Assembly (NCBI GenBank): GCA_964019335.1 | Contig: OZ025694.1 | Location: 248,001-312,000, forward strand | Source: Diplonema japonicum | Taxonomy: Eukaryota > Protista > Euglenozoa: Diplonemea | Direction of reading: 5' to 3' | DNA length: 64,000 nt | In this document: piece after piece, positions 33,428 through 56,662 of the stretch | Numbering within the stretch: the stretch's first letter is position 1 | Layout of the letters: the number at the start of each line of letters is the position of its first letter | Notes under the pieces: model-generated | The model's database searches: none | Told to the model about the DNA's origin: nothing | What the model saw: the letters and a program-made list of their open reading frames with translations, nothing else | Position numbers and translations under genes: made by a program

Positions 33428-33741
33428 CTGGTGGTGGGGATAACATGGAAATATAAAGAAGTACATCAGATGTGTTGTTCGCTGTTGACCTCCCCGTCGG
33501 TCATCACCGGTAGCGCCCAAGTGGAAGAAGCAGATGCTCTGGGTGGCGAACAGGCAGCAAACTACACGGGCTCAGAATCTTGGTTACCCGGGGCGCCCCG
33601 GCTGGGGTTGAGCTGCACACCGCACGCATTAAGGACACGACGCGGAACGCAGAAGAAGCTACAGCTAGGCCGAGGTGCGCCCCCTGTAATCAAGTAAATG
33701 GTGCTTGTGCAGGGTGCCCCCACCGGCTTCCTTTAAATCAT
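33428..33741 (+). mobile_element. Short non-autonomous retroposon, near full length, diverged
   Basis: Colinear with 60776-61082. Confidence 0.85.
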
Positions 33742-36219: not shown

Positions 36220-36340
36220 GAACAAGAGAGGGATTGGTCATGCGCGCGCATGATTCTTTTTTCTTCTTTTTTTCTTTTTTCTTTTTGTTTTAACAATATT
36301 ATTGTCTAATAAAAAAAAGGGGGGATAACAATAAGAAAAA

Positions 36341-37079
36341 ATGCCGCGTACAGCGTCGAGGCAACGGGTACGTGACGAGGCACGCGCCCTTTACGAGAAG
36401 TCTCTTGAAAGCAGAATCGCACGAGACCCTTCTTCACGGGCCCTGCGGCACAACCAATCACACCAGATTTTTGAGTATGCATAGAAAAAAAGGGGAGAGG
36501 GAAAAAAAAAGAAAAAAATCTCCCAGCGGGTCGCGAACACTAATGGAGCAGTTGATGCACGGGTGCTACACAAAGAAAGACCCAAAACAGGCATGGGGGA
36601 CGAATATTGAGAACGGAGAGAAGATGCCTCAGAAGGAACAACCCACAGCGAGAAGAAGCCAAAGCCAGCCGACACACATCAGGCCACCATCACAAGTGCA
36701 AAGCACTACACATAGTACCCAAACAGAAGGTGACAGCACTGTCAAGCCGGAGCAGGAGTTTGTACAGCCTCAACCAAACAGGTTACTGCGCAATGCGATG
36801 ATGAGGAGCTCTTCTTACGTCACACCAAAACCTAGCTCTACCTTTGTACCGCGAAGGGGGGGGCTGGCGCACAACCCGCTCTCAGGGTGCAGGCCGTCTT
36901 CGGCTAATACAGAGCCTGCAGCGCAACGTACTACTAGTATCTTTACCAAAGCTGAGTACGACGAGATCAAGAGGCTTGCCTCGGTGCACCCCGCCCCCAA
37001 GATCGTGCAGCCTGCCAGTACAGGGTCACGGAACAAGAGGTACCAGTCGCGGCCTGCCGACCACGTCTTCCTGTTTTAG
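36341..37079 (+). CDS. Unknown two-exon protein (exons 36341-36474 and 36527-37079)
   Basis: ATG after an A-rich leader; removing GTATGC..CCCAG (52 nt) joins the two frames (IFD-GSRTLME). Confidence 0.7.
36475..36526 (+). other. 52-nt A-rich GT-AG intron
   Basis: gtatgcatag, then A/G tracts, then tctcccag; splicing restores the frame. Confidence 0.75.
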
Positions 37080-37156
37080 TTGAAATACTTAAAGGAATAT
37101 AAGGGAAAAGAGAAAAGAAGTTGTAGGTGTATATCTGCGCCCTTTCTTTTTTTTTG

Positions 37157-38188
37157 AGAAGAAGACGAGGATGAAGACGAGGCTGAAGATGAACAAGAAG
37201 AAGAAGAAGAGGAAGGACAGGACACCGAAAAGTGGCTGATTGCGGAGGCGAGGAAGCAAGAAGCTAAGCAGGCCGAACCCACGACGGCACACTGCGACAT
37301 CTGCGGTCAGGAGCAACAGCTGCCCAACATGCTGGAGCACGCACTGTGGGAGTGCGAAAAGGCCAAGGAAGTGCAACAGCGGGAAGAACACGAAGGCATG
37401 ACGCGCAGGGGGCTGGAACCGTGTACGAAGCTGCATGGCATCCTGCCAAGGGGAGCAGGGAAGGATGTCAGGGAAAGGCTCGAAGGAACGCAGAGGTACC
37501 TGCTGGCGGTGGTGGGGGAGCGGGACGCAGCCCTGCAAGCGAAGAGGCAGGAGGTGTACCACACACACCAGTGGCTGGAGATCACACAAGGTCAAGAACA
37601 CCCAGTACCGTCGGACAAGGACTTCGGCAAGCTACCGGCAGGGGATGTCCTACGGGAGTACACGAAGGAGGTGCTGAGGTGGATGCGGCAACTGCGCTGG
37701 TATGCAGGCAGCAGAAACACGTCAGTGTCGACGGTGGAGCTGGCACTGGATTTCGAGAACGTGACCGGGAAGACCCTTGGAGGGAAGCTGGGGGATCTCG
37801 CAGAAGTACAGCAGAAAGCGAGGAGATTGCATGGACTGATGAAGAAGATCTGGCACACATGGGAGCTAGGGAGGGTACTGAAGAAGGTGAAAGGAAGGAG
37901 GGCCTTCCCAGCTGAGCCGAGCACAAGGGTGCACACACTACGATCCATCGGGAGGACAAAGGCGGTGATCGGATGGAACAGGAGGGCGATATTTGCATCA
38001 CCGAAGACCAAGCATGACCTAGAGGCATTGAAAGGACAATGGGCGAGAGAACGAAGAGAAAGAGCGGCCAGGCTGGGGAGAAGGCCGGCAAGACCACCAA
38101 AGGAGGAGAACCCGCTGCTGAAAGGGGATAGGTGCAGGTAGAAGATGAGAACAAGGGGGCGTCTCACAAAGACTTCCTTTAACTCATA
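37157..38188 (+). mobile_element. 3' fragment of a second non-LTR retrotransposon family
   Basis: CDIC..HALWEC knuckle; LRWMRQLRW..VSTVELALDFE..HTLRSIG..GWNRRAIFASPK is homologous to 5210-6478; tail ends cctttaactcata followed by poly(T). Confidence 0.85.
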
Positions 38189-38548
38189 TATTTTTTTTTT
38201 TTTTTTTTTTTAATTCCCTTCTCTTAGAATTTTGGCTTTTTTTTTTAGATAGAATTATTCGACTTTTTTTTTTCTTTGCCCCTCCCCCTTCCTGCCTTTG
38301 ATAGACATTTTTTTTTTTTTTTTTACTTAATTTTGTAAAGTTACATGAGGAAATTTCTAAAGAGCCATAAAAATCAGAAATCACTTTACCGTTCACGTGT
38401 AAAAATATAGTGGACCATAAGTAATAGGCCGAATTTGGCTTAAAAAAGTGCCATAAATGTAAAGTAAAATCTGATTTTTACGCTGAGCAATTTTCGGACT
38501 TTTTCGGCATTCGTCTTCATTTTTTTGCATCTGGTGGCCGCTAACACC

Positions 38549-38617
38549 GCCGTAGGTCAGTGGTCAGGACCCTCGGCCAGGGTTTTAGGGGTTCAAGTCC
38601 CGAGGGACCGTTTTTTT
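38549..38617 (+). ncRNA. tRNA-derived Pol III-like unit (not a functional tRNA)
   Basis: A-box-like TAGGTCAGTGG, B-box GGTTCAAGTCC and a T7 run; no closed cloverleaf. Confidence 0.5.
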
Positions 38618-38633
38618 GACCCCGATTTTATCG

Positions 38634-38720
38634 AAAAAAGTTCGGGGTCCGGGATTTGATCTGGCGTCTCCAGGAGACGAGTGCGACGACATGACCACTG
38701 AGCTACCACTGAGCTACGGC
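38634..38720 (-). ncRNA. tRNA-derived Pol III-like unit, convergent with 38549
   Basis: Minus strand reads gccgTAGCTCAGTGG (duplicated), then a degenerate B-box AGATCAAATCC and a T6 run. Confidence 0.45.
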
Positions 38721-39445
38721 ATGTTGCGCTTTTACAAACGTCACTCGACATATAAATTAACTGGTTCGCAAAATATGAGACGTAACCCAACCTGCCCAAA
38801 ACACAGCCAGGTATCCGAGGCAAAACACAGTCAGCATCCGAGGCAAAAGAGGCACAAACACACTTTACCAGGTTTCCGAGCCACCAAGCATCACACCTGA
38901 GGCCGGCAAATGCCGAAAATTACACTGGCCATGCATACAGGCGTTCTTTTACACGATACCTTGTTGATGAAGGAACCTGCTATTTTGGCTGGAAGTCAGA
39001 CCTGATCAAGCCCCTGCACAAAACCAGTAGTTTCTGAAGTGCGATGATCAAGTGCCGACACAAATTACACAAAACCTACAGAATTCTGTCAATTTGACAT
39101 CGTCTTCTCAGGCAATCAGGCTTAGTTTTGACATCAGTGTGAACATTTCGTAGAAGTGAACATAAAGGGTTCACAGTGTCCGAAATTTCCTCATTTAACT
39201 TTACAGAAATTAAGTAAAATATCATACTAAATAAAAATCAGCCAGATTTTTTACTCGGAACTTTTTTTTTTTCACTCGTTTTTTTTGAATTTCACTCGCT
39301 TCGCTCGTGAAATTCAACTACTCGTGAAAAAAGAAATTCTTCGTAAAAATCAGGTAATCTGATTTTTATTTAGTAAATAGTTATTTTTACGATGGGTCGT
39401 TTTTTTTTTTTTTTTTTTTTTTTTTTTGCCCAATTTATCCAAGGG

Positions 39446-39476
<31 letters not shown>

Positions 39477-39477
<1 letters not shown>

Positions 39478-40202
39478 TGAGATCTACAGTGGTGTTATCA
39501 GTGTTCGCATTGGCATGCGGGGCGCAGGAGGCCGTCCCGGTGCTGGAGGTCCCGAGGTGCGACAAGGGGAAGGCGGAGATCAAGCAGTACTATGTGTCGA
39601 CGGCACTAGGCATGGTGGTACCGAAACAGCAGACGAGATCCCTACTGTGCTGGGACGCTGAAGGGTGGCTTGTGGAGGAACACGCTGAGGACAAGCACGT
39701 CTTCAGCCCTTACAAGGAGTGCAACAGCAACGTGTGGGAATCATCAGATGTCATGGAGGCATTCTTCAGCCCTGTGTTACACGAGACGGATAACCCTGAG
39801 TACTACTATGAGATGGATGCCACCCCAACAGGTGCCTTCTTTGTAGCTGTCATCAACAATACCAAAGGAAACGCTTCTTACTGCCCGCTTGAGACGTGTT
39901 CTGCAGGGCCTCTGCCTTGCTCTGGTAGGGCTACCTTCCCTTCCGGCCAAAGTGCCAATGCCACATCGACTGGTACTTCGTGGACCGTCACGCTTCGTGT
40001 GCCTTGGACTGTTTTTCTTCCCAAGTACCAGCCGGCGTCTTCTGTGCCGTGGCCTACATGGAGGGCTAACCTGTACCGTTATGACTATCCTGAAGGGCCT
40101 AACTCGAATTACACAAATTTCGAGCTTTCAGCGTGGAGCCCTACACACGACCCTTCGTTTCATGTTCCTGCAAGGTTCGGGGTTTTGAAGCCTATTATGT
40201 GA
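39477..40202 (+). CDS. Secreted CBM9-like (DOMON-type) sugar-binding protein
   Basis: Signal peptide MRSTVVLSVFALACGA; VWESSDVMEAF, YYEMD..P.G and WRANLYRYD..WSPT..FHVP..FG motifs. Confidence 0.7.
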
Positions 40203-40672
40203 GTAGGAAGGGGATTTTAAGGATAGCACTGTGAAGAAAAAGAAAAACTTTTTTTCCCTCCCCCCCTCCCCCCCCCCCCCCGCCGTTCTTCGTCAGAGGG
40301 CTAACAGCTACCCTGAGAAAGAGAAAAAAAAATAAAAAAAAAAAAAAAATAAAAAAAGGAAAGAAATCTTGGGGGATGATTATTTTGACCTTTTTTCCCC
40401 CCCCGTCACCCCCCGCCCACCGATAACCGCGTGTACAGGGGGAGGGTTGCATCAGCAGCTCCCCCCTTTTCCTTTTTTTTTTCCCCTCCTTCTTTTTTTT
40501 TTTTTTTTTACCTCTAAGAAAAAAAGAGTAGTAAAGCAACTAACTTTGTTGGTTACAAAAACTACTTTTCTTTTTTTTTTGTATCACCCCCCCCCCCCCC
40601 CCCCCCCAACAACAAGAAAAAATAAAATCATGCAGGATCTTCTAAAAAAAAAAAAAAAAAAAAAAAAAGAAA

Positions 40673-41533
40673 ATGTCGACCGGATCCACTTTTTACAGTT
40701 ACGACGAACCGTCAAAAGTGTACAGTAAAACACGAAAGGCCGTTGGAGGTGACTTGATGTTGGAGAAGCTGAAGTCAATGGAGACCGACGGGCTCACCGT
40801 GAAGGACATGACAGTCCTCGACGGCGGCGCGGGCACAGGTAACTACAGTACATGGCTTGCCCCGATGGTGAAGAAAGTCGTGGCCTTCGAATTCAACGGT
40901 GGGATGATCAACACCCTGAAGCAGAGAGCAGAGGAGTCCGGCGTGGCCGACAAGATTGAAGTTGTTCAGGGCTCGCTTTTCGACAAGCTTCCTTTTGAGG
41001 ACAACACCTTCGACATGGTGACCATGAATCAAGTTGTTCACCATCTGGATGCTCTGGAGGGCACTGCAAAGGAAGGATTCCCAAGAAACAAATTTGTTGC
41101 AGAGGAGTACTACCGTGTCTTGAAGCCGAACGGGCACATCTGCATAAACTTCACCACACCTGAGCAGAATGTGGAGGCTTGGTGGTGGTCCACTAGTATG
41201 TTGCGAAATGCTGCTTCGACCTTCGCGCTTAGAATGCCTTCTCTTGAGATCCTCCAGAAGCACTACTCAGGTGCAGGTTTTAAGGACCTTACACCTGTTC
41301 CTATTCTCGAACCGCTTCAGGGGGATGCGCACTATGAGGCCCAAGCCTTGCTTAACGAGACCATCCGTAATGGGGACTCGTTGTTCGGGACCGTGCCAGA
41401 GGCGGAGCTAAAGGCCGCCCTCTCGAAGGTCACGGAGCTCATCAAGGAAGGAAAGGATAAGGAGTTCGTCGAGACCCACAGCAAGTGGGGGAAGACCCAC
41501 GGTCAGAGCACTACGCTAGTTGGCAGAAAGTAG
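40673..41533 (+). CDS. Class I SAM-dependent methyltransferase (Methyltransf_11-like)
   Basis: VLDGGAGTG, LPFEDNTFD and YRVLKPNG motifs. Confidence 0.9.
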   Translation: MSTGSTFYSYDEPSKVYSKTRKAVGGDLMLEKLKSMETDGLTVKDMTVLDGGAGTGNYSTWLAPMVKKVVAFEFNGGMINTLKQRAEESGVADKIEVVQGSLFDKLPFEDNTFDMVTMNQVVHHLDALEGTAKEGFPRNKFVAEEYYRVLKPNGHICINFTTPEQNVEAWWWSTSMLRNAASTFALRMPSLEILQKHYSGAGFKDLTPVPILEPLQGDAHYEAQALLNETIRNGDSLFGTVPEAELKAALSKVTELIKEGKDKEFVETHSKWGKTHGQSTTLVGRK

Positions 41534-41773
41534 AAGTTGTCTTGGCCATGGCTTGCTCGATATTTTTTGATTTAACTAAAGGTCGAAGCACTAGAAAAAG
41601 CCAAGAAACTGCAATGCAATCAAAAAACTTTTTTTGGGGGGGGGGCTAAACCTCTCGTCTTTTGAAAACAACCGGTCCTGGAAAAAAAAAAAGAAAAAAA
41701 AAAAAAGAAAAGAAAAGGATGTTCGCTGCATTTCAATAAAATAAAAAAAATCTTTTTTTTTTAAAAAAAAAAA

Positions 41774-41856
41774 CAGGTGGTGGGGGATATTCCTCGTCGG
41801 TCATCACCGGTAAGCGCCCGAGTGGAAGAACGTAACACCGGCCTCCTTTAACTCTA
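41774..41856 (+). mobile_element. Internally deleted short retroposon keeping both ends
   Basis: caggtggtgggg 5' end, ctcgtcggtcatcaccgg block and aacaccggcctcctttaactc 3' end. Confidence 0.75.
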
Positions 41857-42140
41857 ATTTTTATTTTTATTTTTTTAAATCTCTCCCCTTCTCACAAATC
41901 GATTCTCACAGAGAATCTGTTTTTTTTTTTTTTTTTTTTTTTTTTCCCTGTTTTTTTTTACACAAATACTAGTGGGGAGGGAGGCGCCCCTTTGCTTCTG
42001 AACACTTTTTTTTTTTTTGAAAGAACGAGTCTTTGGCTTGTCTAGGCAGAAGAGGGGCGTTGCTGTTGGCAACATGTTTTCGACATGTACCAGCAACGGC
42101 CATTTCCTCTTTTTTTGATTTTTTTTTTCTTATGCGGACG

Positions 42141-42176
<36 letters not shown>

Positions 42177-42700
42177 AAAACGACAATTGAAACATATGAA
42201 AGTGAAAGGAGGGGAAACAATTTTTTTTTTTTCATTTCTAACCTTTCGTTGTAAAAAAAAAAAGAGAAAAAAAGGAAAGTAAGTATAAAGAGAAAAGGGG
42301 GAACTCACACCCCCCTTTTCTGTTTCTTCCACCTCCCATCTTCTCCTCTTTTTCTCTCTTTTCTTCTCTCCGTTTAAAAAAAGAAGAAAAAAAAAAGATA
42401 TCCTTCACTTTTTATTTTATTTTTTTGTTCTCCCCACCTTCCTCTCTTTTTTTTTTTTTTATTCCCCCTTTTGTTTTTCTTTCTTTTTTTTTTTATCACC
42501 AGGAGACAAAGAAAATGCTGTCAATATTGCTAGAATAGGGATACGAAAAAATGGTGAAAGCATCGAGCTTTTATTTTTTTTTTCTTTCTCCTCTTTATCC
42601 CCAATACAAGCTTGCCTTCGTTAGCATTTCAATTCGACTTGAGGCAAGGAGAATTAGGCAAAATTTCTTCCCCCCCCCCCCCCTCCTTTCTTCTTCCTCG

Positions 42701-42746
<46 letters not shown>

Positions 42747-42819
42747 AAAAAACAACAAAATACACTCTTATTTTTTTTTTCTTTTTTTTTTTATGGTAAT
42801 CTTTTTTTTTATTACATAT

Positions 42820-43846
42820 GAGCTCGTCCGGACGAAAATGTCAACTCTTTTTTGGGCACCTCCGAAAATTTCTTGTTTTGATTATTTGAGCAAAAAAAGG
42901 GCAGCATGCAACCATAGGAAGATGACATATATGGTGTACATGACGCCGTTCTTTCAATTGCGATGCTTGTTTTGCCATGAGGGTGGCAGGCTTTGCAACC
43001 GGCTGCCCCCGGGAAGCGAAAAATAGAGGTCAGAAAAACGGCGAAAAATGTTTAAAATACAATCTTATTGCTTAAAATGCAGCATCTAGGGTGCATAAAA
43101 TTGGTGATCAAGCGCACTTGTGACCCCTGGGTACAACCCAGGGTCGGGTTACTGTTAAAAGTACTTAGCGAAAAATATATGGCGCCGCATAGCCCCCGAA
43201 AATCCGGTTTTTTACACCCTATTTTTTGGCTTTTTCAAGGGGTTCCTAAGGGATTTTGGCCTTTTTCAGAAAGACCAATTCTTAACACTTGCCTGCTCAT
43301 GCAGAGCTTCGACATTGGTATCTTTGGGGTCAAACTTTCATTCTCAACCCATCTGCTGAGGTTTTTCTTTTCTTTTGCACTCATAATACTTTAAAAGTGA
43401 AAAATTTGCTTTTTTAAGGGGTTTTAAAGGGATTTTAGCCTTAAATAGGCCAAAATGGCACTGTAAGGATAAGTTCTCCCCACCCCATTTTAATAGTGAT
43501 TTAGAGTCCAGCCCACCCAAAATGACCCCAAAGGTTTCACAGATTTTCAGTCTGCGTCCATTCCTCCTGTCACTTTTCACGGAAAAACGAAAATAAAAAT
43601 GGAGTCTGGGTTATGGGTAACTTCCAAATTGAATCGTTTGCCAAAAACCATTCTAAAAAACATGTTTTTGCACGTGCGTTTTAAAAATAAAACAAACGGC
43701 GAGCATTTTGACCTATATGGTGATCAAGCTTAGACTGCATTTCTGCACACAAAGTGGTGTCGGACTACTTTTTTACTTAGAAGTTTAACGGGGGTTTTCC
43801 GCCGCATAGGAGGGTCATTTGTTGACATTTTTTTCCGGACGAGCTC
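42820..43846. mobile_element. Non-autonomous TIR element with GAG..CTC termini and ATAT flanks (Sola-like)
   Basis: ATAT|GAGCTCGTCCGGAcgAAAATGTCAAC ... GTTGACATTTTtttCCGGACGAGCTC|ATAT. The superfamily is inferred from the termini only. Confidence 0.75.
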
Positions 43847-44025
43847 ATATAATATAATAATATATAGATATATATATTTTTTTTTTTTTCCTTCTCCAAG
43901 TACAACAAACCCGCTCCATTTACTTTCCATCCCCCCTTTTCATTTAACAAAAGAAGAAAAGAAAAACACACACCTCCCCTTTCCCCCCCCTTTTTTTTTT
44001 AAAAAAACCTTTTTTTTTTCCTTAT

Positions 44026-45719
44026 CCCCTAAACGCCCGGAGCCTATCTACGGTACCCCCCCATTTTCGTTGTTGCTTTAAATACTCAAAAAAAGGGCAG
44101 CATGCAACCATAGGAAGGTGCAAGGAAAGGGTAAACGGTACTAAAATTTTCAATTCCAGGTGCCAGATTCAGATGAGAACACTTAACTATGTGTGTAAGA
44201 GGGGGATTGAAGGTGTACTTTTTATGTCCGATTTTGGGGGGTCTTGTCGTGGGGGGTCCGTGCTGTGGGATGAAAAAAGCAACTTGTGAGTTTTTTTCCA
44301 GCTGGGGTAGCATGCAAGGGTAAAAAACACGTTTTGCATAAGGGGGTTTTGCAACAGGGGCACCACGTTTGCACCTTCTTCCCGCACTCAGGAACAGCAC
44401 AGAGCACCCTCCTCACCTTCGTTCCGTTCATCATGGTCTCGGAGGTGTGATTTAGGGTCAAATCGAGACGTTTTGGATTTCTGAGTGAGGGAATCCTCAT
44501 TGCTAGTGATTTGCGCTTGGGGGTCGGTGACGGTGTTGTCGGGGGGTGTGTGCTATCGGTTTTTGGGGCATGGGTGAGAAGCTTGCCAACAAGTTCTTCT
44601 TCGAAGCTCGGGAAGCCATAATTTTTGCCACATTCCCTGCTCTTCTTCCAGATTATGGAGGAGTTGGCAACACTTTCGCTTTCCAGGACCCAATAAAAAA
44701 CGACTCCACTTCCGGGTTTTCATATGCCGAACTCCAGTCCCCTGGATCTGGTCTTGCCGGTCAGGGGTCGACAGCAAACCCTTAGGAGTCGACAGCACGC
44801 ATGACTAGGTCCTGTGTTGTGGACTTCTTGCTGAAAATGTTGATATTCGCCAGTTAACCGTTTTATGAGTCGCATGTAGCGATTACCTTGATGCCCACCG
44901 AGTTGCTTTTTCGTGGTGCCATGACTTTTATTGTTGTCGGGATAACACTGTCGTCAACAGACAACCACTTGCCAGGGGTCCGCACAGTCCTACACCGGTT
45001 GACAATGATGTCAAGAAACCTGCGCATGAGGTGCAGTTTCAGGCCTTCCAAATGTTTTCCAGGTTGTTAAAGGTGAGGTTGCGCTGTATGTCAACGAATC
45101 GGTTTGCTCATTTTCTCAAAAGCCTGGATGGTTAAATTAGAATTTGTTGTCCAGTAGCTCTTCATGTTCGGTGCCGAGTAAACCCATTAACAGGACCAAC
45201 CCAAGCCAAATTTTGTACTCTGGGATGGAAAGATTCAGATTCCGCTGTTTCTTTGAATCAAAACGACCGTTCGTGGAAGAAACTATGAGCTCAAGTACCG
45301 CGTGTGTAAAAAAAAAGATTAAAACACCCTCCTCATTGGCCGCTTCACCTAGAGGTGTCCTAAGCCCACCTTTTTACGGAAATGATATGTTTCGGGCCTT
45401 TGGGGGTATTTCTCCCACCCAAGCATCGTTTCCGGCCCCTCTTTGACCGCCTCATCGTCTTTTTCTTCTTTTTCTGACCAGTCGGGGGAGACTCACGTTT
45501 TCGCTGCTATTTTGACCATCTGATTTCATTTTAAGCCAACCCTGCCGGTTTCAATTAAAACAAAACTTTTAACGCAAAATGTAGTTCCAAGACAAAATAA
45601 ACCGCGCAACAATGCCATATTTTGAAAGTCCAGGGGCCGTGTTCAAAAAAAAAAGTACTTAGCGAAATAGCAAAATTTTGAAAATAAGGACAAAAACGTC
45701 CGCGCGGGCGTTTAGGGGG
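44026..45719 (-). mobile_element. Degenerate piggyBac transposon with TTAT target duplication
   Basis: TIR cccctaaacgccc; minus-strand remnants PGKWLSVDDSVIP..GIKVIATCDS and a Cys-rich tail CAVPEC..WCPCCKTPLCKTCF..H. Confidence 0.88.
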
Positions 45720-45781
45720 TTATATTGAAAAATTTCAAAAAAAAAAAGAAAAAAAAACAAAAAAAAAAAAAAAAAAGAAAA

Positions 45782-47185
45782 ATGCGTCTTACAGTCTTCC
45801 TCGCCTTGGCAGCGACAACATTAGCTTCAAAGCAAAAAATCGCGGTCATCGGAGGCGGCTTCACAGGTGCCAGCACAGCATACTACTTAAATCAGCTTTG
45901 CGAGGACTGCTACGAGGTGACAATCTTTGAAGCACAAGACCGTTTGGGTGGAAGAGTCCTGCACCAGAAATGGCCCAACAGCAGCTTAATAGTCAACGCC
46001 GGTGGTGATGAATGGTCAAAGGTCAACACTTACTTGATGCAACTGATGCAAGAACTACCCATTGAAGAAGACACATACCCATCTAGACCCTACAAAACAA
46101 GCGGTTTATACCAAGGTGCAGGAAACCCTTGGATGCAAATGGCCGTCGATCGCAAAACTGACCCAAACTATGACAGTTCCGCGCTGATCATAGAAAAGCA
46201 AGTTCAGGAAGTCCAAGAATCTTTAAAATTAAACTACAAGGAGCGCGGGTTAAACCTAACCACGGGTAAGCCTTACGAGTCGATAGAAGAATTCGTAAGA
46301 TTCGGAGGTTTGGAATTGTTCACCGCAGATACAACAGCAACCCGTCTGGATAAAGTTGATGTTCTCATGATTAACAGAACTATCATCCCAGCGTGTCGGG
46401 ATATTTACGATCAAAGTATTGGGTTAAACAGTTTTGCTGGAATGGCGGTTGCTCTGTCGGCGCTGACCCCTGCGCATTCTTCTAAAGGTGGGAATGATCA
46501 AGTTGTCATGAAGCTTGTCGAAAAATCCGGTGCGAACACATTTTTATCATCGACGGTAGAAACAGTCTCGTTGCAGGCGAACGACAATGGTGCTGGGTCT
46601 TCATTTTACCTTTCTGTGAATCGTTCAAACCAAGGCCCGTTTGACAGGGTGGTGCTCGGTGCGCCGTTTGAAAACGCTGGGGTTTGGAACAACAACAACA
46701 CGGTTACTCCTATTAAATGGCAGGGATTTTCGCTTCCTTCATTCCCGCTGAGAAAATATCAGCATTGGTACGTGATTTGGGTCGAAGCCAAGGCAGCGAA
46801 CCCGGAAGCATTCGGGCTTTCCTCAAAGGATGTGGTACCCGACATAGCTCTTACGATGGCCAATTCCACTGCAAAATTTGTGAAGCTTGCAGCGGAGTAC
46901 GACCTCGAGAACGGGAACAAAGCGTTCCGGTTTTTCTCGAACGTCCCCATCACGAATCTTGATGAGCTTTTCACAGGGCTCACTTGGAACAAGACTTTCC
47001 ACTGGCCTTATACCTTCCCTGATCTCGCGCCGACATCGACTTTTCAGCCTGTCAAACTGCACGAAAGAATTTACTACCCGAATGCTTTGGAGTCGGTCGC
47101 GGTTGCAATGGAAATGGGTGTCATAGGAGGACGCAATGCGGCTATGCAGATTTATGCCGATGGGCAGAACCCTTCTAAGAAGTAA
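45782..47185 (+). CDS. PCYOX1: Prenylcysteine oxidase-like FAD-dependent oxidoreductase, secreted or lysosomal
   Basis: Signal peptide; IGGGFTG and EAQDRLGGR; C-terminal YPNALESVAVAMEMGVIGGRNAA resembles the prenylcysteine lyase family. Confidence 0.75.
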   Translation: MRLTVFLALAATTLASKQKIAVIGGGFTGASTAYYLNQLCEDCYEVTIFEAQDRLGGRVLHQKWPNSSLIVNAGGDEWSKVNTYLMQLMQELPIEEDTYPSRPYKTSGLYQGAGNPWMQMAVDRKTDPNYDSSALIIEKQVQEVQESLKLNYKERGLNLTTGKPYESIEEFVRFGGLELFTADTTATRLDKVDVLMINRTIIPACRDIYDQSIGLNSFAGMAVALSALTPAHSSKGGNDQVVMKLVEKSGANTFLSSTVETVSLQANDNGAGSSFYLSVNRSNQGPFDRVVLGAPFENAGVWNNNNTVTPIKWQGFSLPSFPLRKYQHWYVIWVEAKAANPEAFGLSSKDVVPDIALTMANSTAKFVKLAAEYDLENGNKAFRFFSNVPITNLDELFTGLTWNKTFHWPYTFPDLAPTSTFQPVKLHERIYYPNALESVAVAMEMGVIGGRNAAMQIYADGQNPSKK

Positions 47186-47213
47186 ATAAAAAAAATAAAT
47201 AAAAAAAGAAATT

Positions 47214-47297
47214 GTTTTTTTTGTTTTTTGTTTTTTGTTTTTTGTTTTTTGTTTTTTGTTTTTTGTTTTTTGTTTTTTGTTTTTTGTTTTTGTTTTG
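47214..47297 (+). repeat. (TTTTTTG)n simple repeat
   Basis: About 11 tandem units downstream of the oxidase gene. Confidence 0.9.
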
Positions 47298-48164
47298 ATA
47301 CAGCGCTTGAAAAAACAGCAGGTGCAGCACCAGTATTTCTTTTTTTTTTTTTTTTTTTTTTTTTCCCTTCGAAGAAATCCTGTAAATGGGGCGCACTTTG
47401 CCGCGAATTCTTTTTGTTTTTTGTTTTTTGTTTTAACAATATCATTTGTCGAGACTTTTTTTTTAAAAAAAAAAAAAAAAAGAAAAAGAAAAGAAAACTA
47501 GTTTGATGGCTACGTAATGAAGTTTATTATATTAGGGTAAAAGTCCGCTGTTGCGCTCAAGCAAATGAAACGCCCCTTTTTTTATAATGAACAGAACACA
47601 AGTTGTTATTTGTTAGTTATCATATAAAAAAGATTTTCTTTTTTTGTTGCCAGTGTTTCGCGTTACAAATAATCTCATTATTTAGGTAAAAAGAAAAAAA
47701 AGAAAAGTTTGCAACCCTTGCGCACAAATAAAACCCCCGCAAAAGAATTATTATTATTATTATTTTCTTTTTTTTTTTTGGGCAGTTCATCTTGTATTGT
47801 ATCCTTTTTTCCCCTACCCTGGGGAGGAGAAGAAAAAGAAAAAAAAAAAAGCAAGAAAGAAGAACTTTTTTAAAAAAAGAAGGGAACCATTTAGTATAAA
47901 CGTTTTTTTTTTTTTTTTTTAACACTTTATTTCTTTTTTTTTCTTCTTCTACTAACAATGAAAGAATAATAACTCCCTTCCCGCGCCCCCCTTCCCTCCT
48001 TTCCTTATCTCACCTGTTTCTTTTTTTTTTTCTTTTTTTTTCTCTACCTTCGCCACATTATTCTCTTTTTTTTTTTTTTTCCAAGAATGCGTCTTTTCTA
48101 CCTTTTCTACCAACTCGGCACGTACAAACAGCTGCCCGGTTTCTTTTTTTTTTTCATTTTTTCA

Positions 48165-48362
48165 TGGCATACATGGGAGCTAGGGAGGGTACTGAAGAAG
48201 GTGAAAGGAAGGAGGGCCTTCCCAGCGGACTGTGCACGAGGGTGCACACACAACGATCCATCGATCACCGAAGACAGGGAGAAACCGCTGCTGAAAGGGG
48301 ATAAGTGCAGGTAGTGGATGAGAACAAGGGGGCGTCTTACAAGGACTTCCTTTAACTCATAT
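48165..48362 (+). mobile_element. Deleted 3' fragment of the 37157 non-LTR family
   Basis: WHTWELGRVLKKVKGRRAFPA and the tail are nearly identical to 37851-38188, with internal deletions. Confidence 0.9.
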
Positions 48363-49182
48363 ATATTTTTATTAAATGTCTCTTTTTTTTCTTTTTTTTT
48401 TTATTTGCACGAATGCTGGTTTTCGTTGCATGTTATTTTGAATCTCCTTTTTTCTTTTTCTTCTTTTTTTTTTTTTTGTTGAGGAGCTAAGTCCTCTGCT
48501 CCTCCCACTCCATTCTCTACGTGTGGCAAGTCTTCTATTTTGTTTTTTTTTCCCCCCTTTTTTTTTGGATGGGTTGTTTAAAACACGTTTCATTTCTTCA
48601 CTAACGGGGACCTGATAGTCACATGCACAGTACTTTATTTGACAAAAATTAAACTATTTGTTAGTTGGAAAATAGTACATAAAGAAGTAACGAAGGAAAG
48701 CGTTTTTGCAGTATATTCTTTGCAGGCACCCTTAAATAGTCTCTTTTTTTTTTCTTTTCTTTTTTTTGCTCCTTCTACTATTCTGCGGTCATTTTTCTTC
48801 AAGAGAATTAAGAAAGAATTGCGCAAAAAAAAAAAAATCTGGAAGGGGAAGAAGCAAAAGGTTTTATAAAAAGAAAAAGATAAAAATGAACGCCTTCTCC
48901 TTTTTTTTTTCCCCCCTTATATATTGATTTTGAAATCTTTTTTTGAGATTTAAAAAAAAAAATAAATAAAAAGAACGAAAAAAAAGAAAAGTTGCGAAAA
49001 AGAAGAGAGAACAGAAAAAAAAACTGAACCGCTCCATGTAAAAAAAAAAAAAGAAAAAAAAAATACCCCCCTGGTTTTTTTGTTCTTCTTTTCTTTTTTT
49101 TCCTTTCGAAAAAAAAAAAAAAAAAACCATTACTTTTGAGTAAAAGAGCACCCGGGACACCGGGGGGGGGAAAAAAAAATAC

Positions 49183-49845
49183 ATGAACCTTCACATAATA
49201 CTTGCACTCTCCGCCTCGGCTCTGCCGTCGGAAAGCAACAACACAAACCCCTTAAACTGGCGGCAAAATATAGCCATGATCACTATCGAAGCCAGCGATT
49301 TCGAAACCGCAGCAGCAGGCAGCAGGGTTGCATCAGAAAGGGCAAACGAGGTGCTCGGCAGCGAAGGATGGTCAGGTTGCGGTGAGGTGTGCAAAACAAG
49401 GGGAGGGGACGGGCCAATGTGCTTCCCGTGCAACAACCTGCAGCAAGGCGGGAATTCGTCAATCACCATCCAGCGTTTCACCTACACCCTTAGCGTTTAC
49501 AGCATGCTGACCCCAACGGGCGTGTACGAGTTCATAAAGACCAACCAGCAGTTTATGCATTTCAAGTTGTCCATTACCTACATTAGCCACACTGTCAACG
49601 GGCATAATTTCAACTCCCCGGAGTCGATACACCTAGAGTCTGTTGTCATCCTTTCCTTTGTGATTATCTGCTTGGTCACGCTTGCCGTCTGTTACTGCCG
49701 TCACATCACACCATCTTCCTTGCCGAGGAGCATGCCCTCTCCCACCCCCAACGAGCCTATAGATACTGCCGAAGAGGTTCACGGTGACAAGGGAAAACCC
49801 AAACGGGACAATAGTAGTGGTGATGAAGAGGTGACGAAGGTGTAG
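49183..49845 (+). CDS. Small type I membrane protein of unknown function
   Basis: Signal-like N-terminus, four Cys, TM segment VVILSFVIICLVTLAVCYC and a disordered tail. Confidence 0.7.
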   Translation: MNLHIILALSASALPSESNNTNPLNWRQNIAMITIEASDFETAAAGSRVASERANEVLGSEGWSGCGEVCKTRGGDGPMCFPCNNLQQGGNSSITIQRFTYTLSVYSMLTPTGVYEFIKTNQQFMHFKLSITYISHTVNGHNFNSPESIHLESVVILSFVIICLVTLAVCYCRHITPSSLPRSMPSPTPNEPIDTAEEVHGDKGKPKRDNSSGDEEVTKV

Positions 49846-50664
49846 TGAAAATCTTCTTGTTTTTTTCCCTTATTTACATCGGGGAAAAGGAAAGGAAGAG
49901 AAAAAAAAAAGAAAACGAGAAGAAAAATGATGGGTTATTCCTTTTCAACCCCCCCCCCCCCTTTACCGTTACACTCGCTAAATCTAAATTTTTTTTCCCC
50001 CCTTTTTCTTTTTTTTTTTAGTTTAAAGAACAACACCCATATATTAAAAAAGAATTCGGTTGTCTTTTTGCTTTTTTTTTTTTTCTTTCGTTCCCCCTCC
50101 GAAGGGTACTCCAGTGGATTCCGCATCGGTCAGCTTGACTCTGCTGTTATCACCGGAATTGTTGTCCTCAGCCCCCAGGGGAAGGTAACGTCCCTATGCG
50201 GTATGAGCATCGCCTTTCTCAAGGCGGCGATCAATCACGTTCTTCAGAAAATGAAGAAGACTTATGTAGGTCACCACCCTCAGCTTTAGGGTCCTGCTGA
50301 CAATGGAAGGCCAGTTCTTGACCCCGAAGTCCCTTCGCCCTTCCAGGTTTCCCCATCCTGGTGCTCAAGAGGAGGGAGTATGAGATATTTATCCCGATCA
50401 GCTCGTCCGCTCTTCCACCCCTGAAAGAGCGATACCTCACAAAGACGGCTCTCTCGAAAACTTAGCACCTTTGTAGCGGATGGCGTGTTCGGTGCCGTAC
50501 CGGTGATTCTCTTGCCCTGACCTCATCCGTTCTGTGTGCTTTTGTGCAATGCTTCTGTGCAGATGCTCGGCATGGCCTTCCTAAGGTACCGTGTTTGCGT
50601 TGTAAATGAATTAGTAAAAAAAAGAAAGGACACAAAAGAGGGAAGAAAAAAAAAAAAAAAAGAA

Positions 50665-51765
50665 ATGTCGGACATCGATGAATGTTGGGAGTACCTTGCT
50701 GACGATCTGAAGGACATGAGAATAGGGGGCAGCTCCGAGTGGGACGAAAAAAGGCTTAAGGAGGCGTGCGACGAAGGGGCCGAGGATGCCACCTTCCGGT
50801 CTATCGTGCAACAGCTCGTGCAGGAACTGGTGGGGCGGACCCTCGACACTCGCCAGAAGCTCGGCTTCTACAAATCCATCAACTTCGCAATGACATCAGC
50901 CAGAGTGGAGACCTACATGCCCCTCAAACTTAACAACACAAAAGACGACCGTCGATATCTCGTAGAATACCTCACGGGCGAAGTCATGGCCAACAGGATG
51001 CTAGAAACAAACCTTTTAGAACAATCCGGCGAAGATGTCAGGCTCTACCAGTCTGGCGACTTGGAAAAGAACCTATCAAGCCACTGCAAATCCATCTGCA
51101 ACTCGATGGGCTACACCACCGCGAGAATCGGTACCGCGATCATGAAAAAAGTTGAAATGGAGCTCCCCGAAAAGCTTAAGAAGATATCCCCCGAGCTGCT
51201 CCTCCCCATATTGGATAAATCTGCCGTGACGCCGGAGGATGAAGAGTTTTTGAAAGCGGCACTAACCTTGCTTCGGTGTGCTTACTCCAAGCGCCGATCC
51301 CTCTTACTCCGACGGACGGAGGGCACTTTTCAATCGTTCCAGTGGTCTGACAAACCAGGCATCGACTTATTCAAATTGAAGAACCGATCTGACTCAATGC
51401 TTGCTGAGTTGTCTACAAAGCCGTCTGTCGCGATGTCGATGCTATACACCATCACACCGCTTAACCTTTATGTCGCGATGCGGACGGGAATGGCAGATCT
51501 TACAAGAAAGCCTGTTTTATATGGGGCGCACAAGTCGTACAAGGTAGGTAAGGTACCTGATCGAGACGGGCGGATTAACACGTATAATGCGGAGGAACGG
51601 TTGGAGCAGGATGTGGTCAGGGCGAACCAGCGGATGAGGGGCGAGAAGTCAGGGGGGTACCAAAGAAAACAGGACTGGAAATGCCCGAATTGCAGTGCGG
51701 ATGTATACGGGTCGAAGGATAAATGCTTCAGGTGCCATACAACTAGAGATGGGAAGAAGGTTTTT

Positions 51766-51800
<35 letters not shown>

Positions 51801-52200
51801 CACAGCCCTCGGACTGGCTGTGCAATAACTGCAACGCTACCGTTTTCGCTAGCAAGTCGCATTGCTTTAAGTGCGGTGCTGCGAAGGGGAATTCCCCAGA
51901 TGCTTCCACTGCCCAGCGAGGCGGGGGCGGATACCAACCCCGTGGAAATGACAAGAACAGAATGCAAGGGTCAAAGGGAACAGGCGGAGGCAAAGGAAAG
52001 TCAGGGAAAGGGTTTGGGGCTGCAAACCGTGACGTTGGTATTTTGGAAAAAAGGGAAAAAAAAAAAAAAAAAAAAAAATCAGTACAAAGCGGCACGCATT
52101 ACAACCAATCTCGGGGTGGCGGAGGTTACCAGGTTTGTGGAAAAAAAACAGGGAGGGGAAAAAATAAAAATTCACACTCCAGGGATACAGCGGGAAATGA
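50665..52200 (+). CDS. FAM98: FAM98 family protein with two RanBP2-type zinc fingers and a Gly-rich tail; 4 predicted exons (50665-51759, 51806-52037, 52083-52132, 52183-52200)
   Basis: YSKRRSLLLRR..TFQSFQWS and VPDRDGR (FAM98 motifs); DWKCPNC..CFRC and DWLCNNC..CFKC fingers; frames joined by GT-AG introns. Confidence 0.8.
51760..51805 (+). other. 46-nt poly(A) GT-AG intron
   Basis: aag|gtttttc(A-run)cccacag|ccc; phase-0 removal fuses the two zinc fingers in frame. Confidence 0.85.
52038..52082 (+). other. 45-nt poly(A) GT-AG intron
   Basis: gtattttgg(A-rich)tcag; removal deletes a poly-Lys stretch. The length is a multiple of 3, so the frame does not force this call. Confidence 0.65.
52133..52182 (+). 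other. 50-nt A-rich GT-AG intron
   Basis: cag|gtttgt..actccag|gga gives GGGYQ-GYSGK*. Confidence 0.6.
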
Positions 52201-52595
52201 TAGGAGATGGCAAAAACAAACAAGGGGGCTTTGGGTCACGGGGTCCAGGGAGGAAAAAAAAAGGGGGGGAGAAGAATGGCTCTCCCTTCATATCTGTTCG
52301 GGGAGTGTGGACCTCACGATGGTTTTTCTTCTTTTTTCTTTTTATATTCTTTTTTTTTTTTTTTTTTACAACTTACTTATAACAGCTGTTTCTTTTTTTT
52401 TGGGGGGGGGGATAGGGGAGAATGGAAAAAAGAAAAAGAAAAGAAAAAAGAAATACCGCCAAAAAAAAAAAAGAATCCCTTTCTTGTCCTTTCAAGTACC
52501 TCTCTAACATTCTTTTTTTTTTATATATATTTTTTTACATCCCTTCCATGTTTATAAAAAAAAAAAAATTAAAAAAAACAGATTTTTAATATAAA

Positions 52596-54137
52596 ATGCC
52601 ACCTAGCAACAGTTTTATCCTGCTCGCGTGTTGTGCGGCAACAGCAACAGCGATGAGCCAACAAGCGGCTCTTTCCCGTGCCCGCTCAGGCGAGACCCAT
52701 GGCAAGAGCACCTACGCAATGTCCACCAACGGAGTGGAAGTATTCTACAACATGCAGTACCTCGGTCTGTTACCCCCAGAGGGTACCATAGATGTCGCTG
52801 TAGCAGGGGACCGCCTCTTCCTACTAGGGAGAACCGTGGCGCATAACATGCTGAGAATATACCAAACCACGGAAGGTGAGGTCCCGAAAAGAATAGATAG
52901 TTATTCCGGGTTATCGACCGAGGCGGAGGTCCACCCGATTGCCGTGAAGGCGCTCAACGAGACCGCCATATTCATCGCAGCGAAAAACGCAATTTACGCA
53001 ATCGATTTGATCGAAAGAACGATCTGGGCCACCGCAAAAATCGATGGGTGCAAATCCGTCTCCCTCTTGGACGGTGCTATCGCGGTTATCGATTCCTCCA
53101 ATATGGTCAGCCTGTTCAGCACGGCAACATTGGAAAGACTCGACACCGTGAGAACCCACGGGTTGCCCGTTGTATTATCCAGCGATGAAACCGATCGATT
53201 CTTCACCGTGAGCGATGAATGCTGGTTGGAACAGTACCAAGTAACACACGATTTCCGTGTCAAGAACATCTTTAGCAAGCAAGCTTGTGTTGTTTTCCCA
53301 AACGGGAGCCACAAACTACATTACACACCCACAACGCTGGAATACGACTCGGATCGCGAAAATATTTTTTTCTCGTACGGGTTGGCACCTTGCAGTGTGT
53401 ACGGATGCGGTGTTGTCTTCGCATATAATGTGGCTGCAGGAACATCACGCAAAATGTACACACCCAAGGGAGACATTCTGAGCGTGTCGCACATTAACGC
53501 AAGCCATCTGTTATCCTGCTCAGAAAGTTCAGGTTGTGCTGTTGTAGATCTCGTTTCCGATTTTTTCGAACAGTATGCGAACGACAGAGTTGTGGAAAAC
53601 CCCGTGCCAGGCTCTGTGGAGAATCCGGAGGACTTCATGCGCGACCACATGGCTGAGATAATCGCCGCCGTTGTGCTTTTTCTGATGCTGATTTTCGCGT
53701 TTTACCTTCGCAGATTATTGAAGGAAAACGAGCGCCGACGGAATGAGGCCAATCGACAAACCGTTCGCGGCCCTGAAGACCACAACAACAATGAAGAGGT
53801 TTGTACCCCCCAAGCTTTGCCTCCCCAGCCTTATGGCGAGGATCTAACCGCACCCGAACACATGGTGTGTCCTATTTCGCTAGAGATTATGGTAGACCCT
53901 GTTGTTTGTGTTGATGGGTATCATAATTTTGAGAGGTATCACATTGAACGGTTTTTGAGTAAGGTGAAGAGCGAATGTCCTGTGAGTAGGCAGGCGATGT
54001 GTGCTGAGGATATTAAGGAAAATACCGGTTTGAAAAAGGAAATTCTTGAGTGGGTCAACGAAAACCGAGCGAAGACGGGCAAGGACGAACATTTCGACAA
54101 CAAAAGCTCAGAAGACTCTGATAGCTGTGAAGTGTGA
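52596..54137 (+). CDS. Signal peptide + beta-rich ectodomain + TM + cytoplasmic U-box (putative E3 ligase), paralog 1
   Basis: PEHMVCPISLEIMVDPV..DGYHNFER.HIE.FL..CPVSRQ..N..LK.EI.EW is a U-box; TM segment IIAAVVLFLMLIFAFYL. Confidence 0.85.
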   Translation: MPPSNSFILLACCAATATAMSQQAALSRARSGETHGKSTYAMSTNGVEVFYNMQYLGLLPPEGTIDVAVAGDRLFLLGRTVAHNMLRIYQTTEGEVPKRIDSYSGLSTEAEVHPIAVKALNETAIFIAAKNAIYAIDLIERTIWATAKIDGCKSVSLLDGAIAVIDSSNMVSLFSTATLERLDTVRTHGLPVVLSSDETDRFFTVSDECWLEQYQVTHDFRVKNIFSKQACVVFPNGSHKLHYTPTTLEYDSDRENIFFSYGLAPCSVYGCGVVFAYNVAAGTSRKMYTPKGDILSVSHINASHLLSCSESSGCAVVDLVSDFFEQYANDRVVENPVPGSVENPEDFMRDHMAEIIAAVVLFLMLIFAFYLRRLLKENERRRNEANRQTVRGPEDHNNNEEVCTPQALPPQPYGEDLTAPEHMVCPISLEIMVDPVVCVDGYHNFERYHIERFLSKVKSECPVSRQAMCAEDIKENTGLKKEILEWVNENRAKTGKDEHFDNKSSEDSDSCEV

Positions 54138-54534
54138 TATTGTTTTCGTGTACAATCGAAGCGCACACTGACTGCTTTGCAACAGGGACCGCCTATAAGA
54201 CCTGAATTGGAAACAATGGCGAGGTTAGGTTAGCTTATACGCAAAGGGCAAAGCCTCTTCTTCTTTAAGAAAGTGTGCAGCTGGCCTTCCATATATTTCT
54301 CCTCCCCCCCTTTTTTTTTCCCCCTCCCTGTTTGCACCCACTTGTTTGTGGAGTTACTTTCAGAGGGGGGCTATTATACTATTTTTTTTTTTTGAAATTG
54401 TATATTCGAGAAGGGAAAAAAAAAAAAAAAAAAAGAAGGAAAAAAAAGAGAGAGAGAAAAAAAAAAAAAGAAATACTTCTGCAAGGATGGGAAACAACTC
54501 CTCTTTTTTTTTTTCTTTTTTTCCTTTTTTGCTT

Positions 54535-55211
54535 GCGATCATCAGGAGAGTGAGCGCGAAGCAGGAAACGAAGAAGGCCGCGGTAGAAAGGTTCCCTTGG
54601 AACAGACCGCTGGTTGGAAGAGGGTGCTCGGTGCCAAGCCTGGATTGGTACAAGAACAACGGACTGAAACACTTCCAAGGGGATACGATTGTCCCAGAAG
54701 TGCTCAAATGGCTTCGCATGCTGCAGTGGAGCCCACATGGTTCAGTCTCAAGGATAGAGCTCGCACTCGACTTTGAGGCCACGACCAAACAGCTCATCTT
54801 GGAAGATACGGCTGACGTACGTAAGCGTGCAAACCGGCTAGCTAAAGTTCTGACAAAACTGTCAGAGGTGGCCGAAAAGAAAGCACGACCCCCTCCTATC
54901 CCCGGGAAACCTTTCTGACATCCTCCCTCCGATCCATTGGTGCAAACAAACGGATCCGAGGGTATACCTGCAGACCCACATTCGCATCGTACGACAAGGT
55001 GCGCTTCATCCTCGAACAGCGACTCGCAACCGGTTCACCGGGGAGAGACGACTGGAGCGACAAGCTCGTGCCGACCTACCTCGAACCTACCCGAAGTATC
55101 CCCACCCCATCTGCCGATAAAAATGCAGCGACGCAGAAGGGTAACAACACAAGATAGACCCCCCACCACGCTGCACACTTAACGCCAAATAGTGTTGCAA
55201 CCAAAGCCCCA
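54535..55211 (+). mobile_element. 3' fragment of a third non-LTR family with a different tail
   Basis: LKWLRMLQW..VSRIELALDFE; after a frameshift SLRSIG..GYTCRPTFAS..QKGNNTR*; tail gtgttgcaaccaaagcccca followed by poly(T). Confidence 0.85.
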
Positions 55212-55295
55212 TTTTTTTTTTTTTTTTTTGCCTTCTTATGTGTATTCATTTTCTGCATTAAATCTTTTTTTGGTTTTTTTTTTTTTTTTAAACGG

Positions 55296-56603: not shown

Positions 56604-56662
56604 CCGCGTGCAAAAAAAAAAAAAAAAAAAAGCTTTCAAAACAAAAAACAAAAAAAAAAACC

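What the first reader, a model, noticed from the sequence alone, without database searches (positions are those of the whole stretch)
36475..52182. Cis-introns filled with poly(A) instead of a polypyrimidine tract: possible cis/trans splice-site code
Seen: four GT-AG segments of 52, 46, 45 and 50 nt (36475, 51760, 52038, 52133) consist mainly of A or purine runs, with only a few pyrimidines before CAG. Removing the first two repairs reading frames, one of them joining two RanBP2 fingers. Intergenic DNA upstream of genes instead has long poly(T) tracts. Established: U2AF binds polypyrimidine tracts, and in euglenozoans such tracts direct SL trans-splicing and coupled polyadenylation. Inference: U-rich acceptors mark trans-splicing, while short A-rich, length-constrained introns mark cis-splicing and avoid being trans-spliced.
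Basis: partly seen in the sequence, partly recalled or inferred. Interest (0 to 1): 0.8.

Follow-up and report, generated by a model that had tools for sequence, protein, structure and literature searches.

The report
A-filled short introns of Diplonema japonicum
Four short introns in two genes of the marine flagellate Diplonema japonicum carry runs of A where most organisms have a U/C-rich stretch, an oddity already published for this species, and the same A-runs also sit in front of its start codons, so they are likely filler rather than a special label for cis-splicing.

Summary
The four GT-AG segments are present as described. Intron 36475-36526 is confirmed by an identical transcriptome-derived D. 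japonicum protein. Intron 51760-51805 is skipped exactly (46 nt) in contigs of two runs. The other two are supported by homology and word-share arithmetic, not by a directly seen joint. The window is Diplonema japonicum, for which Thakur et al. (RNA 2025, PMC12621601) already report A as the commonest base of the 'polypyrimidine' tract (10,131 introns, median 41 nt). The cis/trans code is not in that paper and my searches did not find it, but it is only half supported. Introns lack long pyrimidine runs (longest 6), while 15 of 17 genes have a run of 10 or more upstream. However, A-richness is not specific to cis sites: 76% A in the 20 nt before ATG against 74% before intron AGs. Five of 15 predicted SL acceptors are A-preceded, and orthologous introns in relatives look pyrimidine-rich. 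No SL site was mapped. The scan's earlier notes did not hold this finding.

The parts
36341..36474 (+). Gene A coding exon 1 (134 nt from ATG); 228-aa protein with no Pfam family
   Evidence: Spliced model identical to EukProt D. japonicum protein P0005; no Pfam hit at E<=0.1
36475..36526 (+). Intron 1, 52 nt, GTATGC..CCCAG, 29 A; donor matches the published (G)/GTATG consensus
   Evidence: Only junction giving P0005; X7 and X8 contig pieces start exactly at 36527 with 148 and 176 further letters upstream; X3 contig spans it without gaps
36527..37079 (+). Gene A coding exon 2 to stop
36254..36286 (+). 33-nt pyrimidine run (28 T) upstream of gene A; predicted SL trans-splicing tract
   Evidence: Sequence; function inferred from trypanosome rules (PMC6597758)
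36318..36319 (+). First AG after that tract, predicted (not mapped) SL acceptor of gene A, with 53% A in the 17 nt before its -3 base
   Evidence: prediction only
50665..51759 (+). FAM98/DUF2465 gene exon 1, ending just after the first RanBP2-like finger
   Evidence: PF10239 E 4e-24; diplonemid orthologues 42-49% identical; start chosen from alignment
51760..51805 (+). Intron 2, 46 nt, phase 0, 32-nt A-run; lies in the linker between two RanBP2-like fingers
   Evidence: 46 nt missing in contigs of X8 and X1; P0001 and P0002 break from the alignment at the same GKK/V point
51806..52037 (+). FAM98 exon 2: second RanBP2-like finger and Gly/Lys-rich linker
   Evidence: PF00641 E 0.003, below cut-off; contig pieces end at 52037
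52038..52082 (+). Intron 3, 45 nt, frame-preserving, 23-nt A-run
   Evidence: Indirect: homologues lack the 15-aa poly-Lys insert; pieces end at 52037 (could be a mask edge); word share
52083..52132 (+). FAM98 exon 3 (50 nt)
52133..52182 (+). Intron 4, 50 nt, 24 A, phase 0
   Evidence: Indirect: removal gives the GYSGK end seen in P0001; D. papillatum isoforms P0003 and P0006 diverge at the homologous point; word share
52183..52200 (+). FAM98 last coding exon to TGA; spliced protein 464 aa
12087..12088 (+). Counter-example: only AG between the last pyrimidine run and the ATG of the first fatty-acid-hydroxylase gene; 82% A before it
   Evidence: predicted SL acceptor, not mapped
52580..52581 (+). 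Counter-example: only AG (CAG) between the last pyrimidine run and the ATG of U-box gene 1; 88% A before it, looks like an intron 3' end
   Evidence: could also be the end of a 5'UTR intron
56631..56632 (+). Counter-example: only AG between a 33-nt pyrimidine run and the ATG of U-box gene 2; 100% A before it
   Evidence: predicted SL acceptor, not mapped

Best explanation
The four segments are short GT-AG introns of Diplonema japonicum (two shown spliced, two likely), probably removed by the ordinary U2 spliceosome, and their A-runs are likely passive filler rather than a cis-specific signal. Shown: lengths 45-52 nt, CAG ends, no pyrimidine run over 6, little or no fold, and the same A-rich filler in front of start codons. 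Inferred: in this species homopolymer slippage fills gene-proximal non-coding sequence (5'UTRs, sequence after the stop, introns) with A. The intron is then recognised as a unit: U1 at the GT, a CAG about 45-50 nt on, and any A of the run as branch point. The cis/trans choice would be set mainly by whether a donor lies close upstream, with the long upstream pyrimidine run serving acceptors that have no donor.
For: Splicing. A-filler is not intron-specific: 76% A at -20..-1 of the ATG and 52% at +1..+20 after the stop in 16 genes, against 74% at intron -20..-4; 13 of 17 pre-ATG and 8 of 17 post-stop 48-mers are as A-rich as the least A-rich intron, against 10% of non-coding 48-mers. Non-coding DNA is full of runs of all four bases (runs of 10 or more on +: A 83, T 118, G 8, C 11). 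Filler differs by species at a conserved intron position: P0002 reads through four Phe codons, P0001 through Ser/Pro/Leu/Phe and a Thr-His repeat. Thakur et al. report C-rich tracts in the other five species, a full U2 snRNP set and U2AF1/2 in D. japonicum, and a YTRAY branch motif in only 13.9% of its introns (PMC12621601); 0 of 4 introns here have YTRAY. Donor strength governs cis versus trans at first acceptors in Ciona (PMC11155486).
Against: A neutral filler should sometimes be T: T-runs outnumber A-runs in non-coding DNA here, yet 4 of 4 introns are A-filled, and the published species-wide trend is A. Some strand-specific selection or mutation bias is therefore needed and is not identified. 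Absence of pyrimidine runs over 6 in 4 of 4 introns has a chance of about 0.046 against all non-coding 48-mers and 0.005 against those holding an A or T run (overlapping windows, three introns from one gene). Two donors (GTTTTT, GTTTGT) are poor U1 matches by recalled consensus, which sits badly with donor-driven definition. No experiment on the A-run exists in what I read.
Confidence: 0.5

Rival explanations
1. Avoidance code (the testable half of the first reader's idea): a U/pyrimidine run of about 9 nt or more is enough to trigger SL trans-splicing at the next AG and polyadenylation upstream, so such runs are selected out of introns, and A is the one tolerated homopolymer.
For: Longest pyrimidine run in the introns is 4-6 and no T-run of 10 or more lies in any gene body; 14 of 17 genes have a run of 9 or more at -130..-41 against 55% of non-coding 90-mers. 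In T. brucei, trans-splicing is poor with poly(U) under 9 nt and polyadenylation is set about 100 nt upstream of the tract (PMC9639853).
Against: Purine runs of 9 or more are also enriched in the same upstream region (12 of 17 vs 43%). Orthologous introns of two relatives appear pyrimidine-rich (inferred from protein read-through, DNA not seen). Other diplonemids have C-rich tracts. Trypanosomatid cis-introns all keep polypyrimidine tracts, and trypanosome UTRs hold many unused tracts. FAM98 has no run of 10 or more within 564 nt of its ATG.
Confidence: 0.3
2. Positive A-code: a factor (altered U2AF large subunit, a poly(A)-binding protein or another RRM protein) reads the A-run just before an AG and is needed for splicing, at cis sites and perhaps at many trans sites as well.
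For: The last A-run ends 2-10 nt before the AG in 4 of 4 introns; 5 of 15 predicted SL acceptors are also A-preceded; the paper calls the A significantly conserved in the D. japonicum tract.
Against: Run length and purity vary widely (longest A-run 8, 9, 23, 32; G-runs interrupt two). The same filler follows stop codons, where no acceptor is expected. U2AF1/2 are present; I did not examine their sequences.
Confidence: 0.17
3. The segments are not introns: A-runs are retained coding sequence, retro-insertion tails or assembly errors.
For: The loose pattern occurs 37 times on the non-coding strand. The joints of introns 3 and 4 were not directly listed (one search shows 15 joints and hides 208). 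Intron 3 preserves frame.
Against: Identical spliced protein, exact 46-nt skip in two runs and a gap-free contig over intron 1, conserved intron position in relatives, word share 0.85.
Confidence: 0.03

Closest known systems
[quoted passage not shown]
   Same: Same species; GT-AG, CAG end, (G)/GTATG donor in intron 1, short length (45-52 vs median 41 nt), A as the main base before the AG, usually no YTRAY.
   Different: The paper does not compare introns with SL acceptors ('spliced leader' 0 occurrences) and offers only 'a highly adaptable spliceosome'. Its logos and supplements were not visible to me, so these four introns may or may not be among its 10,131.
Trypanosomatid SL trans-splicing with coupled polyadenylation (PMC6597758, PMC9639853) and their three cis-introns (PMC11613528)
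   Same: Head-to-tail genes on one strand with an upstream pyrimidine run; no branch consensus.
   Different: There the first AG follows the tract and cis-introns keep pyrimidine tracts; here an A-run of up to about 50 nt often separates tract and first AG, and the introns have no tract.
Cis/trans choice at shared acceptors in Ciona (PMC11155486) and C. elegans outrons (cited there)
   Same: One spliceosome serves both reactions; trans-spliced 5' regions are U-richer; a nearby donor competes.
   Different: There the bias is a modest compositional one over hundreds of bases; no A-filled mini-introns are described in the passages read.
FAM98 / DUF2465 family (PF10239)
   Same: Host gene of three introns has the DUF2465 domain and a Gly-rich tail.
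   Different: It carries two RanBP2-like fingers; P0003 (D. papillatum) and P0004 (Flectonema neradi) show none in the alignment, P0007 one.

Membership tests
U2-type spliceosomal cis-intron | GT...AG ends | tested here: met
   4 of 4, all CAG
U2-type spliceosomal cis-intron | Removed from mRNA with flanking exons joined in cis | tested here: met
   Intron 1: identical Trinity protein. Intron 2: 46-nt skip in X8 and X1 contigs. The runs' kind is not on record; RNA is inferred from the skips.
U2-type spliceosomal cis-intron | Removal of introns 3 and 4 | tested here: inconclusive
   Homology and word share favour it; no joint listed
U2-type spliceosomal cis-intron | Polypyrimidine tract and YTRAY branch motif | tested here: not met
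   Longest pyrimidine run 4-6; YTRAY 0 of 4. Typical, not obligatory; the same lack is published for this species.
U2-type spliceosomal cis-intron | Lariat formation, dependence on U1/U2 snRNP | not testable with these tools
   snRNAs and U2AF reported present in D. japonicum; no snRNA gene in this window
D. japonicum A-tract introns (PMC12621601) | Organism is D. japonicum | tested here: met
   228 of 228 aa identical to EP01064_Diplonema_japonicum_P020187; one protein only
D. japonicum A-tract introns (PMC12621601) | A most abundant in the last 20 intron bases; short length | tested here: met
   A fraction at -20..-4: 0.65, 0.82, 0.94, 0.53; 45-52 nt
Euglenid/hemistasiid non-canonical introns | Non-GT-AG ends brought together by base pairing | tested here: not met
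   Ends are GT-AG; two introns have no fold (0 kcal/mol); the others -8.9 and -6.2 kcal/mol without pairing of the two ends
   5 of 15 predicted SL acceptors have A fraction 0.5 or more; pre-ATG DNA is as A-rich as introns. Acceptors are predicted, not mapped.
   15 of 17 genes vs 0 of 4 introns
   Needs minigenes

The most novel reading that the evidence does not exclude
D. japonicum has split the 3' splice signal in two: a long upstream U-run is the dedicated trigger for SL trans-splicing and coupled polyadenylation, and cis-introns are purged of it, kept near 45 nt and spliced with no pyrimidine tract at all. That would be a composition-based cis/trans switch on one spliceosome, in which U2AF-type tract reading serves only trans-splicing.
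Probability: 0.25. Interest if true: 0.65.

Novelty: already known. Interest (0 to 1): 0.3.

Why it matters
How one spliceosome keeps cis- and SL trans-splicing apart in a polycistronic, intron-containing genome is open. D. japonicum is a clean test case because its introns have lost the pyrimidine tract while most genes keep one upstream. The A-tract itself is published. What this window adds is the side-by-side picture (tract, then A-run, then ATG upstream of genes; A-run only in introns), which makes a genome-wide comparison with existing RNA-seq straightforward. It also warns annotators that poly-Lys stretches in D. japonicum gene calls can be unspliced introns.

Tried and rejected
No whole genome is held for this window, so no genome-wide intron or acceptor census was possible. 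No listed run is on record as RNA. The one read-laying answer was dominated by repeats: 15 joints shown, 208 hidden, none of the 15 at the four introns; SL tails could not be seen (24 loose ends shown, 1241 hidden). The 176 letters upstream of 36527 in X8 fit exon 1 plus UTR with or without an SL piece, so they do not locate the acceptor. The 236 letters after 52037 in X8 fit several splice patterns and were not used. Metagenome scan with the FAM98 alignment: 586 pattern matches, no relative. Exact look-up of six window ORFs: none in the collection. Search with FAM98 exon 2 for a spliced D. japonicum form: nothing at E<=1e-5 among 29 candidates. Rfam: 0 matches in the window. Exon 2 was scanned in the wrong frame (no hit), redone. 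The finger pattern was mis-specified (0 matches), corrected. One gene start was off by one base, corrected. Other intron-like + strand candidates inside or at the end of ORFs (374-419, 7031-7074, 11911-11953) gave no clear frame repair and were not counted. Structure-guided splicing was rejected; the intron 1 hairpin (z -2.6, 1 of 200 shuffles) is one of four tests. Paper searches with nothing on a diplonemid cis/trans code: 0 papers; 0; bioRxiv 10.64898/2026.07.29.740908 passages held nothing relevant.
Full report
Observation. Pooled they are 61% A and 12% T; the longest pyrimidine run is 6, 6, 4, 4; none has YTRAY. The pattern alone proves nothing here: a loose rule (GT, 38-60 nt, at least 45% A, an A-run of 6, YAG) finds 22 acceptors on + and 37 on -, because non-coding DNA is full of homopolymers (runs of 10 or more on +: A 83, T 118).

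Organism. The gene at 50665 is a FAM98/DUF2465 protein (PF10239). Its four homologues at E<=0.001 include Diplonema papillatum DIPPA_03833 and a Flectonema neradi protein. Exon 2 of the gene at 36341 found one homologue among 15 candidates, 100% identical, 228 aa: EukProt EP01064_Diplonema_japonicum_P020187, a Trinity ORF. The window is thus D. japonicum, on the evidence of this one protein. The 17 intact genes I modelled all lie on +, and 15 have no coding intron that I could find.

Are they spliced? Intron 1: yes. The two-exon model equals that protein at all 228 residues, and only the 36475/36526 junction of 625 tried gives it. Contig pieces of runs X7 and X8 begin exactly at 36527 and go on for 148 and 176 letters upstream, more than an SL could supply (SL length of about 39 nt is recalled). 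A 3073-nt contig of X3 crosses the intron with no gap. Intron 2: yes. Records 30 (X8) and 7 (X1, a variant with 34 differences in 903 nt) have 9 letters where the window has 55, a 46-nt skip. Removal brings two RanBP2-like fingers into one frame; both score below Pfam's cut-off. Introns 3 and 4: likely. The fully spliced 464-aa model aligns best to 3 of 4 homologues. The exception, P0001, is an unspliced gene call and differs by 4 points. The model ends GYSGK like P0001, and two D. papillatum isoforms diverge at the point homologous to intron 4. The expected share of 31-mers is 0.854 with three introns out, 0.90 with two, 0.95 with one; X7 and X8 show 0.85 of 157 words. The kind of X3, X7 and X8 is not on record; I infer DNA for X3 and RNA for X7 and X8 from these patterns.

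What is known. Thakur et al. (RNA 2025, PMC12621601; parts 1-4 of 8 read, i.e. abstract to start of methods, plus passages; figures and supplements not seen) analysed 10,131 D. japonicum introns: 98.3% GT-AG, median 41 nt, donor (G)/GTATG, CAG end, YTRAY in 13.9%. The paper does not mention spliced leaders. In D. papillatum essentially all mRNAs carry an SL (PMC10161547, passages); I extend this to D. japonicum by inference.

Testing the code. For 16 genes, T peaks at 43-50% from -120 to -61 of the ATG, but A is 54% at -40..-21 and 76% at -20..-1, and 52% just after the stop. Intron positions -20..-4 are 74% A. With 17 genes, 13 pre-ATG and 8 post-stop 48-mers reach the A content of the least A-rich intron, against 10% of 31,749 overlapping non-coding windows; the threshold was taken from the introns themselves. 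So upstream regions read tract, A-run, ATG. Taking the first AG after the last pyrimidine run of 10 or more as the SL acceptor (the trypanosome rule, PMC6597758 passages), 5 of 15 such AGs have 50% or more A before them. In three genes that AG is the only one available and has 82, 88 and 100% A. These sites are predictions; the true site could lie upstream of the tract. Two of 17 genes, including the FAM98 gene, have no such run within 250 nt. Kinase, retrotransposon and element-remnant ORFs and the truncated last gene were left out of the counts. Starts were the first in-frame ATG except for gene A (from the transcript protein) and FAM98 (from the alignment).

In favour of the negative half of the code: no intron has a pyrimidine run over 6 (chance about 0.046 for 4 of 4 against all non-coding windows, 0.005 against windows holding an A or T run; three introns come from one gene). 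14 of 17 genes have a run of 9 or more at -130..-41, against 55% background, though purine runs are also up, 12 of 17 against 43%. T. brucei needs about 9 U for good trans-splicing and sets polyadenylation from the same tract (PMC9639853, passages). Against it: two unspliced gene calls from related genomes leave the alignment at the same GKK/V point, and read through four Phe codons (P0002) or Ser/Pro/Leu/Phe and a Thr-His repeat (P0001), which implies pyrimidine-rich introns at this position (DNA and species not seen). The other five species in the paper have C-rich tracts, and trypanosomatid cis-introns universally carry tracts (PMC11613528, passages). In Ciona, donor strength is the main correlate of cis versus trans use (PMC11155486, passages).

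Mechanism. Shown: short GT-CAG introns, A-filled, mostly unfolded, two certainly removed. Inferred: removal by the U2 spliceosome through intron definition, with the branch A taken from the run; A as species-specific slippage filler in gene-proximal non-coding sequence; a nearby donor deciding cis. I put this at 0.5, active exclusion of U-runs as the cis/trans switch at 0.3 (the two can both hold in part), a positive A-reader at 0.17, artefact at 0.03. Why the filler is A and not T on the sense strand is the unexplained point.

Novelty and verdict. The feature is real and already described for this species. The cis/trans reading was not found in nine paper searches of a library that lacks most subscription papers, and unread supplements may touch it. 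The scan's own notes hold nothing on it; five notes on this genome concern retrotransposons. Interest 0.3: a known oddity with a cheap, worthwhile follow-up.

Noticed in passing
window 1663-4043: Protein kinase plus LRR_5 gene whose kinase domain is split between two frames near 2040 with no intron-like segment; pseudogene or assembly error.
   Followed up: partly
window 50665-52200: This FAM98 orthologue has two RanBP2-like fingers; related diplonemid proteins show one (P0007), none (P0003, P0004) or apparently two (P0001), so finger number varies in the family.
   Followed up: partly
window 50101-50391: Non-repetitive stretch upstream of FAM98 covered by a low-depth contig in run X7 (4.5 vs 43 for the FAM98 exon); no clear ORF; FAM98 lacks a near pyrimidine run.
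   Followed up: partly
window 52550-52581: GT...A-run...CAG segment of 32 nt just before the U-box gene 1 start: either an A-preceded SL acceptor or a 5'UTR intron.
   Followed up: partly
window 36493-36524 and 52152-52180: Introns 1 and 4 each have a GGAG-type purine patch that can pair with a CUCC-type patch next to the acceptor, hiding internal AGs (intron 1 z -2.6, intron 4 z -0.7).
   Followed up: partly
window 12116-17430: Three tandem fatty-acid-hydroxylase-family (PF04116) genes, two nearly identical.
   Followed up: no
window 30222-33125: One ORF with three Peptidase_M28 stretches behind a likely membrane anchor.
   Followed up: no
window 17610-17840, 33500-33700, 59450-59670, 60840-61080: Several copies of a short non-coding repeat (about 200 nt) that looks like a SINE or element remnant; also a repeat at about 22440-22990 found inverted at about 60240-60740.
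   Followed up: no
window 4282-6478, 37158-38141, 48170-48310, 54560-55100: Non-LTR retrotransposon reverse transcriptase (RVT_1) and 3' remnants of related elements.
   Followed up: no
window 52596-58786: Two related membrane proteins with a C-terminal U-box (PF04564).
   Followed up: no
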